From Eledone cirrhosa (lineage: Eukaryota), in NCBI GenBank assembly GCA_964016885.1, contig OZ024743.1, positions 345,526,001 to 345,590,000 of the forward strand: a stretch of DNA of 64,000 nucleotides, read 5' to 3'. Made by a program: the position numbers and the translations under genes. This document shows, in pieces, positions 3,210 through 64,000 of this stretch. The notes under the pieces were generated by a model, which worked only from the letters and a program-made list of their open reading frames with translations, did not search any database and was not told the origin of the DNA. Within the stretch, counting starts at the first letter, position 1, and each line of letters begins with the position of its first letter.

Positions 3210-3296
<87 letters not shown>

Positions 3297-3320
3297 ATAT
3301 ACTTTAATATGTATATATGC

Positions 3321-3391
<71 letters not shown>

Positions 3392-3594
3392 TATGTACAC
3401 GTACATACATATATGTATACCGACGTACAGTAGTATGTATATATATATATACATACATGCACACATATATATATGCACGTATGGATTCACCGAACATTTA
3501 TTATAATGCTCGGTGTGTTTGTAAACAAACATCCCGTATTAAGCCGTAGTGTCTAGCAACCACCGTTGCTCGTTTGTTCAACACTGACAAAGGA

Positions 3595-3637
3595 ACGCTG
3601 TACTAGTTTCAAGCTTGTTAGCTATCGTCAGCAACGT
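3595..3637 (-). ncRNA. Type I hammerhead ribozyme (family B copy 1)
   Basis: Reverse complement reads acgttg-CTGACGA-tagctaacaagctt-GAAA-ctag-TA-cagcgt. Confidence 0.8.
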
Positions 3638-4016
3638 ATACCTTTCTGCCAGATTGTTGAACGTATATACTTACCTGATGCATATTAACGGCTGAGTAGC
3701 CCAATATGCATATCGAGTGGGTTAATCGGCCGGGTGCACCGAAAACGATAAACGGAAAAAATGAAACGATATTTCATTTCCCACTCTTAGTACGGCTGTT
3801 ACTTAAATATAAGTATGTACACGTACATACATATATGTATACCGACGTACAGTAGTATGTATATATATATATACATACATGCACACATATATATATGCAC
3901 GTATGGATTCACCGAACATTTATTATAATGCTCGGTGTGTTTGTAAACAAACATCCCGTATTAAGCCGTAGTGTCTAGCAACCACCGTTGCTCGTTTGTT
4001 CAACACTGACAAAGGA

Positions 4017-4059
4017 ACGCTGTACTAGTTTCAAGCTTGTTAGCTATCGTCAGCAACGT
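4017..4059 (-). ncRNA. Type I hammerhead ribozyme (family B copy 2)
   Basis: Same motif as 3595-3637 in the second tandem unit. Confidence 0.8.
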
Positions 4060-4434
4060 ATACCTTTTGCCAGATTGTTGAACGTATATACTTACCTTAT
4101 GCATATTAACGGCTGAGTAGCCCAATATGCATATCGAGTGGGTTAATCGGCCGGGTGCACCGAAAACGATAAACGGAAAAAATGAAACGATATTTCATTT
4201 CCCACTCTTAGTACGGCTGTTACTTAAATATAAGTATGTACACGTACATACATATATGTATACCGACGTACAGTAGTATGTATATATATATATACATACA
4301 TGCACACATATATATATGCACGTATGGATGTTTCATTTTTTCCGTTTATCGTTTTCGGTGCACCCGGCCGATTAACCCACTCGATATGCATATTGGGCTA
4401 CTCAGCCGTTAATATGCATAAGGTAAGTATATAC

Positions 4435-4521
4435 GTTCAACAATCTGGCAGAAAGGTATACGTTGCTGACGATAGCTAACAAGCTTGAAACTAGTACAGC
4501 GTTCCTTTGTCAGTGTTGAAC
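4435..4521 (+). ncRNA. Type I hammerhead ribozyme with extended stem I (family B copy 3)
   Basis: CTGACGA 4466-4472, GAAA 4487-4490, palindromic stem III ACTAGT, GUA site 4494-4496. Stem I acgttg/cagcgt extends via aaagg/ccttt, ctggca/tgtcag and gttcaaca/tgttgaac. Confidence 0.85.
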
Positions 4522-4765
4522 AAACGAGCAACGGTGGTTGCTAGACACTACGGCTTAATACGGGATGTTTGTTTACAAACACACCGAGCATTATAATAAA
4601 TGTTCGGTGAATCCATACGTGCATATATATATGTGTGCATGTATGTATATATATATATACATACTACTGTACGTCGGTATACATATATGTATGTACGTGT
4701 ACATACTTATATTTAAGTAACAGCCGTACTAAGAGTGGGAAATGAAATATCGTTTCATTTTTTCC

Positions 4766-4834
<69 letters not shown>

Positions 4835-5009
4835 GCAAATAAAAGAAACATATATATATATATATATATATGCAAAAGTTCTATTTAAATTGTTGGGATA
4901 CAACAAGCAAATATTTTTATAACTGATATAAAGCACTCGACAAGTATTTGGAGTAAATATACGATATTAACAAATGGAAACTATATTTATAAAACCATAT
5001 TTATTTCAT

Positions 5010-5062
5010 TATACATATTTCAAGGATACCATGTTAAATTATGGTATGCCTTCATCAGACAA
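5010..5062 (-). ncRNA. Hammerhead-like motif in a small (TA)n-flanked element (4872-5143)
   Basis: Reverse complement: CTGATGA-aggcataccat-aatttaac-atggtatcctt-GAAA-tatgta. Strong stem II; stems I and III weak. Confidence 0.6.
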
Positions 5063-5140
5063 AATACAATATATACCAATTTTATAAATAAACATTGACG
5101 TACCCTTTCAAAATGCAACCGTTACTTTTGGAAGACATAA

Positions 5141-5142
<2 letters not shown>

Positions 5143-5215
<73 letters not shown>

Positions 5216-5237
5216 TTTATATGCATATATATATATA

Positions 5238-5309
<72 letters not shown>

Positions 5310-5393
5310 TATAAATATATATATATATATATATATATGCATATAAATATATGTATATATATATATACATATATTTATATGCATATATATATA

Positions 5394-5477
<84 letters not shown>

Positions 5478-5505
5478 TATATATATATATGCATATAAAT
5501 ATATG

Positions 5506-5588
<83 letters not shown>
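5143..5588. repeat. (TA)n tract with TGCA interruptions
   Basis: Directly visible. Confidence 0.95.
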
Positions 5589-5590
<2 letters not shown>

Positions 5591-5774
5591 TTATGTCTTC
5601 CAAAAGTAATCCCTATTCAATATAGAAATGGCTTCTACAGGACTAGAACTGTAGAAGCCATTTCTATATTAAATGATGTTGAACTGTGTTTACCACCGAT
5701 TTTACTCGGGGTCGGCACACACACACACACACATAAATATACATATATGTGCGTGTGTGTATCTAGTCTCTAAA

Positions 5775-5911
5775 GTCTGACTGAAGCTCGGAGGCTGATC
5801 AGGCCGGTGCTTATTCCGGTTTCCATGGCGATAAGCGACTGAGAGTACAATACTCCCGCCAGACCATCGCTGGGTGAAACTCGTAGCTATTGCTGGAGCA
5901 ACATAAAATGA
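5775..5911 (-). mobile_element. Degenerate SINE fragment
   Basis: Shares taagcgactgaga... with the degenerate repeat at ~39440-39660. Confidence 0.4.
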
Positions 5912-6362
5912 AGCCGTTAATATGCATAAGGTAAGTATATGTTCAAAAATCTCGCAGGAAGGTATTCGTTGCTGACGATAGTTAATAAGCTTGAAACAAG
6001 TACAGCGTTCCTTTGTCAGTGTTGAACAAACGAGCAACGATGATTGCTGGACACTACAGCTTAATACGGGATGTTTGTTTACAAACATACCGAGCATTAT
6101 AATAAATGTTCGGTGAATCTATAAGAGCATATGTATATGTGTGCATGTATGTATATATATATATATATACATACTACTGTACGTCTGTATACATATATGT
6201 ATGTACGTGTACATACTTATATTTAAGTAACAGCCGTACTAAGAGTGGGAAATGAAATTTCGTTTCATTTTTTCCGTTTATCGGTTTCGGTGCACCCGGC
6301 CGATTAACCCACTCGATATGCAAATTGTGCTACTCAGCCGTTAATATGCACAAGGTAAGTAT
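5912..6362 (+). mobile_element. Diverged family B monomer with a different circular permutation; HHR at 5967-6008
   Basis: Starts and ends with agccgttaatatgca.aaggtaagt (~28 nt redundancy). CTGACGA 5972-5978, then GAAACAAGTA-cagcg. Confidence 0.85.
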
Positions 6363-6381
6363 GTGTACATATATATATATA

Positions 6382-6698
6382 TTTCGTTTCTGAATTTGTT
6401 TAGCAAGATTCTTTATCTGAAAACGTGTGTTGAAACCGATATTGTTATACTTTGGGAGGGTCATGTTGCCAATAAGAAACACACGCACCAGTTGCTCTTA
6501 CTTCAATGAAGAGGTCTCAGAATGTGTGATGAACGAACTTTGACAATATATGAACAATCATCTGGTTGTGGAACCAACCAACCAACTGGAAATTTATAAA
6601 TTCCTAAATTTATAAATTTAATTTATAATAAATTGAAGTGAAATAACTGGTGCGTGTGTTTCTTATTGGCAACATGACCCTCCCAAAGTATAACAATA
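6382..6698 (+). mobile_element. Non-autonomous mini-PLE: inverted 3' tail plus partial pseudo-LTR with degenerate HHR
   Basis: Inverted repeat 6441-6493/6645-6698. Homologous to the pseudo-LTR at 48925-49181 of the minus-strand PLE. Confidence 0.8.
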
Positions 6699-6710
6699 TA
6701 TATATATATA

Positions 6711-9373: not shown

Positions 9374-9510
9374 ATTTAAATGGATACAGTTCAGTAAAAG
9401 GAATTTATTGACACGTGTTTCAATAACAGTTATATAACCTGAAAACAGCTGCTATCTACAAAGTATTAATTATGCAGACACTCAATATTTCAATGTTATT
9501 TTCAACTATC

Positions 9511-9551
<41 letters not shown>

Positions 9552-9715
9552 AGTGAGTGTGAAAGACCAAAGGTCATTATTTAAATGGATACAGTTCAGT
9601 AAAAGGAATTTATTGACACGTGTTTCAATAACAGTTATATAACCTGAAAACAGCTGCTATCTACAAAGTATTAATTATGCAGACACTCAATATTTCAATG
9701 TTATTTTCAACTATC

Positions 9716-9764
<49 letters not shown>

Positions 9765-9928
9765 AGTGAGTGTGAAAGACCAAAGGTCATTATTTAAATG
9801 GATACAGTTCAGTAAAAGGAATTTATTGACACGTGTTTCAATAACAGTTATATAACCTGAAAACAGCTGCTATCTACAAAGTATTAATTATGCAGACACT
9901 CAATATTTCAATGTTATTTTCAACTATC

Positions 9929-9981
<53 letters not shown>

Positions 9982-10015
9982 AGTGAGTGTGAAAGACCAA
10001 AGGTCATTATTTAAA
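9374..10015. repeat. Three tandem ~205-215 bp units, each with an internal (TA)n and a degenerate minus-strand HHR-like motif
   Basis: tttaaatggatacagttcag at ~9375, 9580 and 9793. Reverse complement has TTGTAGA-tagcag...ctgtta-tt-GAAACACGTGTC-aataaa. Confidence 0.8.
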
Positions 10016-60205: not shown

Positions 60206-63200
60206 ATGGCTATGCTAAGAGTAGGCTGTTTAAATGCGCGTGGCCTGGGCTCAACTTGGAAACAAGCAATGCTTCTAAATGACCTCAGGTCACAACGTAT
60301 AGATGTGATGGTTATTTGCGAGGCCCGGATCAGCAACGTGCGACGGCTGGCCCCCACTTTTGATGACTTAGAGATGCACGCATCTCTCTGTCAGCCCGGA
60401 GGTGGGGGTGGAGTTGTCGTTCTGCTGCAAAAACATCTGGGTCTCGCAACACAGATGGTACATTTGGACCCGGAGGGTCGACTAGTGGTTCTGGACCTTG
60501 GCAGTGGTAAAGGCGGAGCGTTTAGGTTGGTAGCCGCCTACGGCCCTTTCGGGTCAATGCGGCCGGACTTCTTCCATCGTCTGGAGACTTTTCTAGGGAC
60601 GTTCTGCTCCTTGCTATTAGTGGGGGACTGGAATGGTATCCTAGATGCACGCTGGGACTACGTAGGGGCCTGTCCCGATAGAGAGGGGTGTAATAGCCTC
60701 AAAGGGTTAATCGGTCGATTTGACCTGGCTGATAGATATCGACTAGATTTTCCGACTGCGCCAACCTGGACTTGGGCAAATCGTAGCGGAACATCTAGGT
60801 CGTACCTAGATAGGTTCTTAGTTAGAATTAAGGATAAGGACTTTTTAAGTTGTCCAAAAATGCGCATGGTTGGCTATTCAGACCACAAATTAGTGACCTG
60901 CATGGTCAACCTTGACAGAACTCATAGACAGGGACCCGGTTACTGGAAGCTTTACTTGTCCTTACCGGCAAGTAAGGCTTACAGGAACCGGATTAGCACT
61001 TTAGTTAAGGAGCGGTTGACGGGCGCCATCGTCAACAGCAGGTGGTGGGGATCTCTCAAAAGAGAGATTAGAGTAGTCTCTATAGAATTTAGTAAGGAGT
61101 TAGCCTCCAATAGAAATAGGAAGGAAAGGGAGCTGGTAGATAATGTAGAAGAGGCAATTAGAAGCGGCGACGTGGCCAGAGTGCTAGCGTCGAGAACGGC
61201 CCTGGGCCAGTTCTTCGACGCGAAACACGAAGGCTGCATCGTCCGAAGCAAAATACGTGCTCTGGGAAACGAGGGGAGCAAAGCTGTTAGCTGGGCCCAC
61301 GTGACAGAAGCCAAAAGAGGGAGCAGATCCACTATCCGGTCTTTGCGAGACCAGGATGGACGGGTGATCCTTGAACCTAAGCAGATGTGCGAGGCTTTTC
61401 AAAAGCACTTTGCCGAATTGTTCGGAAGGGGCGGGGGGCCGGTTGGGGACGTGGACTTCGGTCCATACCTCGACGGCCTGCCTCGTCTCTCGGACAGGGA
61501 GGCGAAGTCCTGCGAGGAGCCGATTTCAGCCGCTGAGATAGAGGACCTGCTGAGCCAATGCGGCAAGCGCAAATCCCCGGGTCTCGATGGTCTTCCATAC
61601 GAACTATATCTAGCTATGCCGGACTTGTTCCCCGAACTCCTCGAGGCGGTCTACTGCAACTGGCGACAGAACGGGAGAATTCCCTGTGCTGTGACCAAGG
61701 GCGTAGTCACGCTAGTGAGGAAGGACGAGAACAAGGGGGACGATATAAATAATTTCAGGCCCATAACTCTGCTAAATACAGAGTTACATATTTTCGCCAA
61801 GGTGCTAGCAAAGAGGTTGGCGCTTGTCGTGGGCAACCTCGTGGGAGATGCGCAGACATGTGCTATCCCGTCCAGGTCCATCCACGATAACCTCCACCTC
61901 ATGCGATACATCATAGAGAGGGTTGGGAACGAACCCGGCTTTGGTGGGGTCCTGATCAACTTGGATCAATCTAAGGCATTCGATAGGGTCGACCATGGTT
62001 ACCTGGATGCGGTACTAGCGGCGGCAGGCTTCGGACCCGTTTTCAGGGGCTGGATCAATGCCATGCACAGCAGCCGCATCTGCTCTAGGGTCAAGGTGAA
62101 CGGCTACCTCTCGGAGCCGTTCGAAATCGCGCGGTCCATCCGACAGGGGTGCCCTCTCTCCTCCCTTCTGTATGTAGTGACTCTAGAGCCACTGCTGCGG
62201 AAGTTGGAGTTGTTGCAGGGCATCCCGTTGGAACCGGGATTGCGGAAAGCGGTGTCAGCCTACGCCGATGACGTAACAGTAATGGTGTCGACGGCCTCGG
62301 AAATCGGGGCGATCGGCACCTTACTGGAGGAGTACGAAAGGTTTACAGGGGCTAAGCTGAACCGGGACAAGTCGATCGGTCTGCAACTCGGCACGTGGAG
62401 GGGCAGATCGATGCCCTCCGATGGCGTCGTCGGGCGCTGGACGGAGGGCCCGGTGAAATTGCTCGGAGTCTGGTTCGGACCAGACCTCCAGGTGGAGAAG
62501 AACTGGGGTGAGGTGACGAGCAGGGTGTTTGCACTGACCCAGAAGTGGGCCGAGTGCAAACTGTCCCTGAAAGGTCGGGCGGAGGTGGCGAACACTTATA
62601 TAGCGTCCGTCATCTACTACCGCCTGACCGTGGTGCCTTGCCCAAGGGAAACGCTCGCCAAAATGGAGCGCGCACTCTTCCAATTCCTTTGGAAGAAGCG
62701 GGCTCCTATGGTGAGGAGATCCATCTGCTGTCAACACCCTTCGAAAGGAGGGCTGGGGATGCCGTGGCTGATGATACGTAAACACGCATTAAGGCTACGG
62801 CACCTTCAGGTATTCCTCTCCGGTCAACCGGTGTGGGCCCCGTTTGTGAGGCGAGCCTTTCCCAGACTCGTCTCACTCACCGAGCTGCAATCCTGGGTCA
62901 AGCAAAGACCGAGAAAACTGGGCGCCTGGCACACCGAGTGTGCCCAGGCGCTCACGACTCTCTGGCAGGCGGACCCGGCTGTCAGTGGAGAATCCACCTC
63001 GTCATTCTATAGAGGGCTGGTGGTTAGCAGGTGCGACGACGCCCTCGGAGAAGCCCTAGGCATGGAGGAAGACGAACTGGCCAACCTGTTCGGTAGGACA
63101 TTCAGCCCGGGACCCATGGATAACTTCCAGAGGTCCCTGGCTTGGCAATGCTACAGAAGGGCTCTGCCCGTTCGAGAAAGGCTCTACAGACACGGGCGCC

Positions 63201-63642
63201 CGGGTAGGGACCCATCGAAAAAGGTCTGTCCCAGATGCGTGTGCGACGAGGAAACCGTTGCACACGCATTGGTACATGCTCGGGCATTGCCGATCTGTGG
63301 GGCTATGTCGAACAACTGCTGTCAAGGGTGGGACCGATCCGGTTGACCACCGAATCTATTGTAACGATCAAGCCGCCTCCCCTCTTCAAAAACGAAGGAG
63401 AGGCGGTGTTTCTGTGCGTAATAGCCATGGCGAAAGAGGTTGTATGGTGGACGCGTATGAAAGGACTGAGGACAGACACCTTTCTCTCTGGCCAACAACT
63501 GGTCCGTTTCTTCCGATATCATTTCGGAAGAAGGATCAGGATGGAGAGAGAGGTGCTGCACCCCAGCCGTTTCTATGAAAGATGGGTGAAAGTGGCGAGA
63601 ATGGCCCGTGTGAATGGGCCTTCACTCTACATCAGACTATAG
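60206..63642 (+). CDS. LINE ORF2: APE endonuclease + RT + C-terminal CCHC (1-nt frameshift at ~63276)
   Basis: LNARGL, E, VGDWN, SYLDRF, SDH (APE); KSPGLDG, FRPITLLN, LDQSKAFDRV, RQGCPLS, YADDV (RT). The sibling has gtacactgc where this copy has gtacatgc. Confidence 0.92.
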
Positions 63643-64000
63643 GTGAGGAAGATGAAAGGCCAAGGGAGCACCCCTTCTCTGTGCTCCTGAGGAGAATGGT
63701 ATAATGTATTTTGAGTTAATAGTAAGCCGGAGTTGATGCCATTCTCTTAACCTTTTCTTGTAGGATTCTCTCCATACCAAAGAAACTACTGTCGACCTCC
63801 ACAACATTCTCAATATCCAGTTCTTGAAGTCGGTTTTGCCAAGGCGCCTCCTCTCTATTGAGGATTTTGTTATAAATTTTATTTTTTGTTATATTTTATT
63901 TTATTTTTATACTTTGTTATTGCCTCCTCCTTATTGAGGACGCCTTTTTGTGTAAACTCCCCCCTTTGTACTTGTCCCACTTTTGATGCCCTGGTGGCAA

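What the first reader, a model, noticed from the sequence alone, without database searches (positions are those of the whole stretch)
3385..6362. Circularly permuted ~421-nt HHR monomers: candidate retrozyme/circular RNA family
Seen: one 421-422 bp ORF-less unit occurs as a 2.2-mer (3385-4329), an inverted 1.05-mer (4330-4770) and a diverged 1.07-mer (5912-6362). Each starts at a different point of the unit, and the two monomers have short terminal redundancy. Each unit has one HHR with a ~25-bp interrupted stem I and (in three copies) a palindromic ACUAGU stem III. Established: palindromic short stem III is typical of HHRs cleaving as dimers, and metazoan non-LTR retrozymes give monomeric circRNAs. 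Inference: variable permutation with slightly-more-than-unit length is what reverse transcription around a circular RNA template would produce.
Basis: partly seen in the sequence, partly recalled or inferred. Interest (0 to 1): 0.82.

Follow-up and report, generated by a model that had tools for sequence, protein, structure and literature searches.

The report
Hammerhead retrozyme with Penelope-type insertions
A 422-base non-coding repeat that carries a hammerhead RNA motif (predicted to cut itself) sits here in three rotated copies ending in TA runs, and it is likely a small parasitic retroelement of a kind known from other animals, likely pasted in by Penelope-type enzymes and possibly copied from an RNA circle.

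Summary
Observation confirmed. A 421-422 bp non-coding unit occurs as a 2.24-mer (3385-4329, sense on the minus strand), a head-to-head 442-nt copy (unit+20) and an independent 451-nt copy (unit+27, 93-96% identical). Each unit holds a type I hammerhead (0 of 5000 shuffles) and folds strongly (z -8 to -10.5). In one public run 9,490 contigs cover the unit all round, and the ribozyme region varies only at tolerated sites. No foreign sequence is attached, so this is not a Penelope pLTR remnant. All three 3' ends overlap (TA)n by at least 3 nt and the A/B pair is head-to-head, which is the Penelope-like insertion pattern. It fits a metazoan non-LTR retrozyme, a known class, in a host that is probably an octopod (weak evidence). 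Rotation alone does not prove a circular template, since internal priming on an uncleaved multimer gives it too. Only the unit+20/+27 lengths favour a circle (2 of 3 copies, chance 0.003-0.014, post hoc). Expression, cleavage and circles are untested. The scan noted other retrozymes on other DNA, but not this sequence.

The parts
3385..4329 (-). Copy A: 2.24 tandem units with two hammerheads; 5' end at unit position 115, 3' end at 216 overlapping (TA)n by 5 nt
   Evidence: the two units differ at 2 of 422 columns
3998..4083 (-). Hammerhead of A unit 1; core at 4053, predicted cut after 4023
3576..3662 (-). Hammerhead of A unit 2; core at 3631, predicted cut after 3601
3601..4022 (-). Predicted 422-nt monomer released by cleavage at both sites of A; 38% GC; 70% paired when folded as a circle
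   Evidence: prediction only
4329..4330 (.). Head-to-head (5'-5') joint of A and B; blunt, no palindrome, no clean microhomology
   Evidence: this exact joint is not among the joints listed
4330..4771 (+). Copy B: one unit plus 20 nt; 3' end overlaps (AT)n by 3 nt
4435..4521 (+). Hammerhead of B: 24-pair interrupted stem I, core 4466-4472, U-U mismatch at the base of a 4-bp stem II, palindromic stem III 4490-4495, cut after 4496
   Evidence: variation
4613..4701 (+). TA-rich hairpin inside the unit (unit positions about 117-205); offers internal TA sites; source of low-complexity false hits
5912..6362 (+). Copy C: independent insertion, 424-nt unit plus 27 nt; stem III palindrome broken; 5' flank is not (TA)n, with a 2-nt overlap; 3' end runs into a decayed (TA)n
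   Evidence: carries majority family letters at 4391, 4452, 4480 and 4534 (B coordinates) where B does not
3242..3389 (.). (TA)n target tract at A's 3' end
4769..4871 (.). (TA)n target tract at B's 3' end

Best explanation
The 422-base unit is a non-coding, hammerhead-bearing repeat present in many variant copies, likely a non-LTR retrozyme whose RNA is predicted to be cut to monomers and closed to circles, and which is likely pasted into TA microsatellites by the enzyme of autonomous Penelope-like elements (PLEs). Steps: (1) shown: tandem and rotated copies, one type I hammerhead per unit, no ORF. (2) Inferred from known retrozymes: a tandem locus such as A is read through; two hammerheads pair their palindromic stems III and cut after GUA; the 422-nt monomer is closed by a host ligase. 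(3) Inferred from the junctions: a PLE GIY-YIG/RT protein cuts (TA)n, and the DNA 3' end primes at any TAT in the RNA, which sets the rotation. (4) Inferred, weakest step: RT runs round the circle and often stops 20-30 nt after meeting its own primed start (B, C) or displaces it and goes on (A). (5) Inferred: priming at both ends of one double-strand break and blunt joining of the two cDNAs gave the head-to-head A/B pair.
For: Hammerhead descriptor 0 of 5000 shuffles. Fold z -8.0 and -10.5 on the sense strand against -4.5 antisense; the constrained hammerhead fold lies 5 kcal/mol above the circular minimum. Run X1: 9,490 contigs at 80-100% identity, 27 of 29 bins covered, end-to-start joint 4751>4330 seen in X1 and X4, share running on into unlike sequence 0 in X1. 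Of 29 variable places in X1, 3 fall in 4466-4496, all at tolerated sites (N7, loop II, H17; P 0.012, tolerant set chosen after seeing the data). Stem I pair 4463/4499 varies on both sides in a way compatible with compensation (linkage not shown). 3 of 3 3' ends overlap (TA)n by 3 nt or more, chance 0.138 each. A head-to-head joint at other coordinates occurs in X4, and three opposite-strand joints in X1. 15 breakpoints show no clustering on the unit (Rayleigh p about 0.5). All four hammerheads are copied intact across the cut site. 2 of 3 copies are unit+20/+27 (chance 0.003-0.014). PLE RT and GIY-YIG ORFs lie in the window. PLE inverted 5'-truncated copies and TA targets are described in PMC8557442, cleavage and extension of both strands in PMC11167929.
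Against: Three copies only, and the length statistic is post hoc. A's two units differ at 2 places, where two turns of one circle would be identical; one of these letters also appears in a loose end of X6. A second rotated hammerhead unit in the window has arms shorter than its unit (497 and 541 of about 593 nt). In the one in-vitro PLE system, unprocessed RNA was the main substrate and initiation was at fixed, non-homologous sites. In X1, 4499 G>U (54% of depth) exceeds the compensating changes at 4463 (34%). No target-site duplication and no partner PLE sharing sequence with the unit were found in the window. Rfam does not recognise the motif. 8 of 9 predicted Xenopus retrozyme dimers did not cleave in vitro.
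Confidence: 0.6

Rival explanations
1. Same non-autonomous PLE-mobilised family, but the template is an uncleaved linear read-through transcript of tandem copies. Internal priming at TA sites and random 5' truncation give the rotations, and circles, if made, are by-products.
For: PAc RT initiates internally and HHR cleavage is not needed for insertion in vitro. An ordinary PLE family in the window has 1 of 4 3' ends shifted 63 nt to an ATAT site. A's units differ at 2 places. The 593-nt unit at 46399-47436 shows rotation without redundancy.
Against: It gives no reason for B and C to stop 20 and 27 nt past one unit (chance 0.003-0.014). The hammerhead core and the palindrome are conserved across the family, which implies cleavage matters.
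Confidence: 0.27
2. A satellite spread at the DNA level (extrachromosomal DNA circles or microhomology-mediated template switching at fragile TA tracts); B would be a fold-back copy of A.
For: B equals the reverse complement of 3748-4188 but for one base. TA tracts flank the copies. Local amplification of retrozyme arrays by unequal crossover is proposed in the 2026 preprint.
Against: No palindrome or clean microhomology at 4329/4330, and B matches no stretch of A exactly. The TA overlap is polar, at the sense 3' end in 3 of 3 copies. C carries family-majority letters absent from A and B. The fold and ribozyme are strand-specific. The same geometry is seen at PLE fragments in the window.
Confidence: 0.07
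3. The unit is the pseudo-LTR of an autonomous PLE, left as truncated partial tandems.
For: Type I hammerheads with palindromic helix III occur in pLTRs. Xenopus retrozymes are related to pLTRs. Head-to-head inversions are the PLE norm.
Against: 2.24 direct units with no ORF between them. In X1 the share running on into unlike sequence is 0, and the best-supported loose ends are variants of the unit itself (16 rows shown, 162 not shown). Ends are not fixed, whereas other PLE-like families here end at the same base (3 of 4 copies of one family; both arms at 23963/24381 and at 5142/5589).
Confidence: 0.04
4. The tandem/inverted arrangement is an assembly artefact.
For: A and B are more than 99% identical, the region is microsatellite-rich, and the exact 4329/4330 joint was not listed.
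Against: End-to-start joints occur in two runs and a head-to-head joint at other coordinates in X4. A's units carry private differences, and C is an independent diverged copy with its own redundancy.
Confidence: 0.02

Closest known systems
Metazoan non-LTR retrozymes (Cervera and de la Pena 2020, PMC7229834; parts 2-4 of 6 read, supplement not readable)
   Same: Short non-coding tandem unit, GC under 50% (38%), one type I HHR per unit, highly self-paired predicted circle with the HHR free to fold, co-existing PLEs. The HHR joins two traits described separately in axolotl: weak palindromic helix III (Amex1) and a U-U mismatch at the base of helix II (Amex2).
   Different: 422 nt is at or just above the reported circRNA range (about 170-400 nt; repeats 150-450 bp). 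No TSD seen. Weak helix III, where most invertebrate retrozyme HHRs are said to have a stable one (PMC7761336). circRNA not shown here. No cephalopod case turned up in the searches.
Non-LTR retrozymes as non-autonomous PLE derivatives (Li, Clavereau and Pollet 2026, bioRxiv 10.64898/2026.07.22.740005; parts 1-3 of 5 read)
   Same: Copy A meets their definition of an active retrozyme (two consecutive units with complete HHRs). Monomers and dimers co-occur, and PLEs are present.
   Different: Their evidence is co-occurrence and pLTR similarity, mostly in vertebrates. The parts read do not analyse insertion junctions, rotation or unit-plus-a-little lengths. No parent pLTR was found here (window only).
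EN+ Penelope-like elements and their pLTRs (Craig 2021 PMC8557442; Arkhipova 2013 PMC3846280; Cervera 2014 PMC4209133, passages; Frangieh 2024 PMC11167929, parts 1-2 of 4)
   Same: Partial tandems, adjacent inverted 5'-truncated copy, (TA)n targets, internal RT initiation, HHR.
   Different: No ORF. 3' ends are variable and overlap the target, whereas PAc starts at two fixed non-homologous sites. The 20-27 nt redundancy differs in sequence between copies, unlike the fixed 30-40 bp PLE tail.
Replitrons (Craig 2023, PMC10288648; passages)
   Same: Short direct terminal repeats and non-autonomous derivatives.
   Different: Their repeats are fixed family sequences, they are HUH DNA transposons of plants, algae and protists, and no ribozyme is mentioned in the passages seen.

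Membership tests
Metazoan non-LTR retrozyme | Short (150-450 bp) non-coding unit in tandem copies | tested here: met
   421-422 bp, 2.24 copies, longest ATG ORF 51 aa; end-to-start joint in X1 and X4
Metazoan non-LTR retrozyme | One type I hammerhead per unit | tested here: met
   4 of 4 full units by descriptor, 0 of 5000 shuffles; Rfam models did not score it
Metazoan non-LTR retrozyme | GC below 50%, highly self-paired monomer | tested here: met
   38% GC, 70% paired, z -8.0 and -10.5
Metazoan non-LTR retrozyme | No LTR/PBS/PPT architecture | tested here: inconclusive
   No LTR layout, ends variable; PBS and PPT were not searched for
Metazoan non-LTR retrozyme | Dispersed multi-copy family in a genome with PLEs | tested here: met
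   9,490 variant contigs in X1; RT and GIY-YIG Pfam hits in the window at 24445-26085
Metazoan non-LTR retrozyme | Self-cleavage in vitro (monomer or dimer) | not testable with these tools
   needs a transcription assay
Metazoan non-LTR retrozyme | Expressed as linear and circular monomer RNA | not testable with these tools
   needs raw total-RNA reads or a northern blot
pLTR of an autonomous PLE | Repeat flanks an RT/GIY-YIG ORF | tested here: not met
   no ORF between units; share running on unlike 0 in X1; the whole genome was not available
pLTR of an autonomous PLE | Fixed 3' end with optional 30-40 bp tail | tested here: not met
   3' ends at unit positions 216, 275, 356, against shared ends in control families
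PLE-type integration (works like) | Inverted 5'-truncated copy at the 5' end; (TA)n target | tested here: met
   A/B joint and 3 of 3 3' ends; same joint type in X4
Replitron | Fixed short direct terminal repeats and a HUH Rep partner | tested here: not met
   the redundant sequence differs between B and C; a Rep partner was not searched for

The most novel reading that the evidence does not exclude
The genomic copies are a direct fossil record of Penelope reverse transcriptase working on a circular RNA. It primes at any TA of the circle from a cut (TA)n tract, stalls 20-30 nt after one full turn, and can do so from both ends of one break. A genome-wide length peak at n x 422 + 20-30 nt would be sequence-level evidence, not found in the papers searched, that animal retrozyme circles are the retrotransposition template, here in a likely cephalopod with more than one such rotated family.
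Probability: 0.45. Interest if true: 0.65.

Novelty: new member of a known kind. Interest (0 to 1): 0.45.

Why it matters
The class is known, and copying from a circle into more-than-unit cDNA is the published hypothesis (PMC7229834, PMC7761336, PMC4209133). Which enzyme moves animal retrozymes, and whether the circle is really the template, remain open in those papers and in the 2026 preprint. This family has many copies, variable breakpoints and clean junctions, so the question can be tested from the assembly alone by measuring insert lengths and end polarity. It also adds junction-level support (TA target, head-to-head inversion) for PLE mobilisation, and probably extends retrozymes to cephalopods.

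Tried and rejected
No whole genome is held for this window, so ends could not be mapped genome-wide. Rfam: no hammerhead match; the miRNA-model hits are microsatellite artefacts. No RNA holder listed among 24 runs. X20 (RNA a guess) matched only the TA-rich stretch 4677-4716 in 3 of 29 bins, which says nothing about expression. 4 of the 20 holders were laid; the small shares of the other runs and their organism labels are not used as evidence. X4 (3 contigs) and X6 (33 contigs) cover the unit at low depth, and I cannot say whether they are other species or traces of the same animal. Exact-pattern scans for the hammerhead core found 0 in metagenome contigs and 0 in viral contigs. A covariation count on the window alignment used a mis-registered structure string and is discarded; three near-identical copies could not show covariation anyway. 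A low-stringency BLAST of the unit against the rest of the window found no parent pLTR. Host: the only species-named hit among 86 for a window PLE protein is Octopus bimaculoides at 53% identity; a second search gave 51 unnamed hits; resemblance of the window's SINEs to octopus SINEs is recalled, not tested. Lunse 2017 is not held, and the supplement of PMC7229834 could not be read, so a cephalopod example there cannot be excluded. The bioRxiv supplements were not seen. Self-priming fold-back for B was considered: no palindrome at the joint. Look-alikes by sequence in the scan's notes were low-complexity matches.

Full report
Setting. The window is microsatellite-rich animal DNA with PLE-type RT and GIY-YIG frames at 24445-26085 and an L1/Tx1-like RT frame at 60182-63343, plus a further PLE-like frame at about 49400-51350. 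No genome is held for it. The host is probably an octopod, on weak evidence: one species-named hit of 86 (O. bimaculoides, 53% identity) and a recalled, untested SINE resemblance. A second search gave no names.

Observation. It is confirmed in full. Copy A (3385-4329) has period 421-422 and 2.24 units. B (4330-4771) is inverted relative to A and is one unit plus 20 identical bases. C (5912-6362) is a 424-nt unit plus 27 bases (26 of 27 identical) and is 93-96% like B. The hammerhead defines the sense strand: minus in A, plus in B and C. A and B are therefore joined 5' to 5' with their 3' ends pointing outward. Counting from the cut site, the 5' ends are at 115, 256 and 330 and the 3' ends at 216, 275 and 356. 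The longest ATG frame in the concatenated unit is 51 aa.

The ribozyme. All four full units match a type I descriptor that hit 0 of 5000 unit shuffles. In B, a 6-bp proximal helix, an internal loop and further helices give 24 pairs of stem I. The core is at 4466, stem II has 4 bp on a U-U mismatch, stem III is the palindrome at 4490-4495, and the cut is predicted after 4496. The palindrome gives an intermolecular duplex of -4.8 kcal/mol, against +0.9 for C's variant. Short palindromic helix III and cleavage as dimers are described for metazoan type I motifs (PMC4209133, passages). The U-U base of helix II is described for axolotl HHR_Amex2 (PMC7229834). Rfam does not score the motif. The monomer folds with z -8.0 or -10.5, against -4.5 for the antisense strand. 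The part before the TA-rich hairpin alone gives -3.2, the part after it -1.8. As a circle, stem II and the four outer pairs of the proximal stem I helix have probabilities of 0.90 or more, and the two pairs next to the core 0.47 and 0.63. A fold with the core forced open is 5 kcal/mol above the minimum.

The family. 20 of 24 listed runs, from 16 studies, hold part of the unit, 6 of them half of its words or more; none is on record as RNA. I laid 4 at 80% likeness. X1 (kind not on record; 1,394 million letters of contigs, which suggests genomic DNA, an inference) gave 9,490 contigs: 2,014 at 99% or more, 3,530 at 95-99%, 3,183 at 90-95% and 763 below. They cover 27 of 29 bins, the two empty bins being the skipped repeat. 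Junction contigs have depths mostly of 9-18 against summed depths of 0.2-2.3 million in the fully covered bins. The tool warns that this is no copy number, but even a 31-fold overcount would leave hundreds to thousands of copies (inference). The end-to-start joint 4751>4330 occurs in X1 and X4. The share of X1 contigs running on into unlike sequence is 0, and the best loose ends are variants of the unit (16 rows shown, 162 not shown). Of 29 places varying at 3% or more in X1, three lie in 4466-4496: N7 (15%), loop II (67%) and H17 A>U (5%), all tolerated. The chance is 0.012 with 8 of 31 positions called tolerant after the fact. The stem III palindrome does not vary at that threshold. At stem I pair 4463/4499, G>U (54%) is met by U>A (15%) and U>G (19%); linkage is not shown and part stays mismatched. 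A and B share a letter at 4391 that 99% of X1 depth lacks, while C has the majority letter there and at 4452, 4480 and 4534. So A and B come from one source, and C is an independent insertion. X4 holds a 389-nt contig one letter from B with a foreign 5' flank at unit position 219, and a head-to-head joint at 4338/4464. X1 has three opposite-strand joints whose polarity I cannot read; joints at this likeness carry the tool's caveat. X20 matched only low-complexity sequence.

How it was inserted. All three 3' ends overlap a TA run by at least 3 nt (5 in A; C's tract is decayed); a random joint does so with probability 0.138. The 5' ends show no such rule: the A/B joint is blunt, and C's 5' flank is other sequence with a 2-nt overlap. 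There is no TSD. An inverted 5'-truncated copy next to the 5' end and a (TA)n preference are PLE features (PMC8557442; PMC3846280), and a purified PLE protein cuts and extends both strands of AT-rich DNA and starts internally in its RNA (PMC11167929). The window supplies controls: other inverted inserts in TA tracts have the same geometry but mostly shared 3' ends (3 of 4 copies of one family; both arms at 23963/24381 and 5142/5589; a shared end plus a tail at 37253-37652). The 422-nt family differs in having scattered ends: 15 breakpoints from the window and the runs show no clustering (Rayleigh R 0.21, p about 0.5).

Circle or linear template. All four hammerheads are copied intact through the cut site, so the template was religated or uncut. 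Rotation alone does not decide this: an uncut tandem transcript with internal priming gives it, and unprocessed RNA was the main substrate for PAc in vitro. The discriminating feature is length. B and C end 20 and 27 nt past one turn, as expected if RT stalls on meeting its own primed start on the same molecule. The chance for at least 2 of 3 copies is 0.003-0.014 under three null models, post hoc and on three copies. Against the circle: A's two units differ at 2 of 422 columns, and a second rotated hammerhead-bearing unit of about 593 nt at 46399-47436 has arms of 497 and 541 nt, both under one unit. I put the whole chain, with the circle as template, at 0.6, a linear template at 0.27, DNA-level spread at 0.07, pLTR remnant at 0.04 and artefact at 0.02. 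That it is a PLE-mobilised retrozyme-type family is about 0.87.

Comparison with what is known. It meets the sequence-level features of metazoan non-LTR retrozymes (PMC7229834, parts 2-4 of 6 read; PMC7761336, passages), and copy A meets the 'active' definition of Li, Clavereau and Pollet 2026 (parts 1-3 of 5 read), who argue that such elements are non-autonomous PLE derivatives. Cleavage and circular RNA are untested, and in that preprint 8 of 9 predicted dimers did not cleave. More-than-unit reverse transcription of a circle is the published model. Seven literature searches showed no cephalopod retrozyme and no analysis of rotation or unit-plus-20 lengths in the listings and passages seen. 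The O. vulgaris repeat paper has 0 occurrences of 'ribozyme'. Unread supplements and subscription papers could hold either. The scan's earlier notes list other retrozymes and a tRNA-bearing PLE-type repeat in TA tracts on other DNA; these are unchecked leads, not support.

Verdict. A real element and a new member of a known kind. Its value is that its junctions make the open question of template and enzyme testable from an assembly. Interest 0.45.

Noticed in passing
window 46399-47436: Second rotated non-coding unit of about 593 nt in a head-to-head pair (arms 497 and 541 nt, segments in permuted order), both 3' ends in (TA)n. Hammerhead-like motif read by eye at 47279 with a U3-A8 core variant, long stem II and palindromic loop III.
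   Followed up: partly
window 37253-37652: Inverted repeat with a type I hammerhead in each arm (37337 minus, 37568 plus); shared 3' end, one arm abutting (AT)n, the other with a tail-like extension.
   Followed up: partly
window 23963-24381: Inverted pLTR-like pair with identical 3' ends in TA and a hammerhead-like motif with a long stem II (read by eye near 24226), just upstream of PLE RT/GIY-YIG frames at 24445-26088.
   Followed up: partly
window 6383-6699, 38778-38817, 48928-49180: 3' end of the PLE-like element at about 48928-51993 (minus) in four places; three end at the same base, one 63 nt earlier at an ATAT site. One copy abuts copy C's TA tract.
   Followed up: partly
window 4872-5142 and 5589-5680: Two fragments facing each other across the (TA)n at 5143-5588 with the same 3' end; hammerhead descriptor hit at 5058 (minus) and a 60-nt hairpin at 5615-5674.
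   Followed up: no
window 9374-10015: 213-bp tandem repeat (about 2.9 copies) with a variable (TA)n inside each unit; no hammerhead descriptor hit.
   Followed up: no
window 920, 8870, 21895: Further isolated hammerhead-like core matches in loose scans; not controlled for chance.
   Followed up: no
window 29589-30518: Frameshifted frames resembling the C-terminal part of a PLE protein by eye; no Pfam hit at E 0.001.
   Followed up: no
window 58394-63700 and 28258-29300: L1/Tx1-like element with ORF1-like and endonuclease-RT frames, plus a 5'-truncated copy 94% identical.
   Followed up: partly
window 3748-4771: Read-through of the A/B pair from either side would form a double-stranded hairpin of about 440 bp, a possible small-RNA source.
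   Followed up: no
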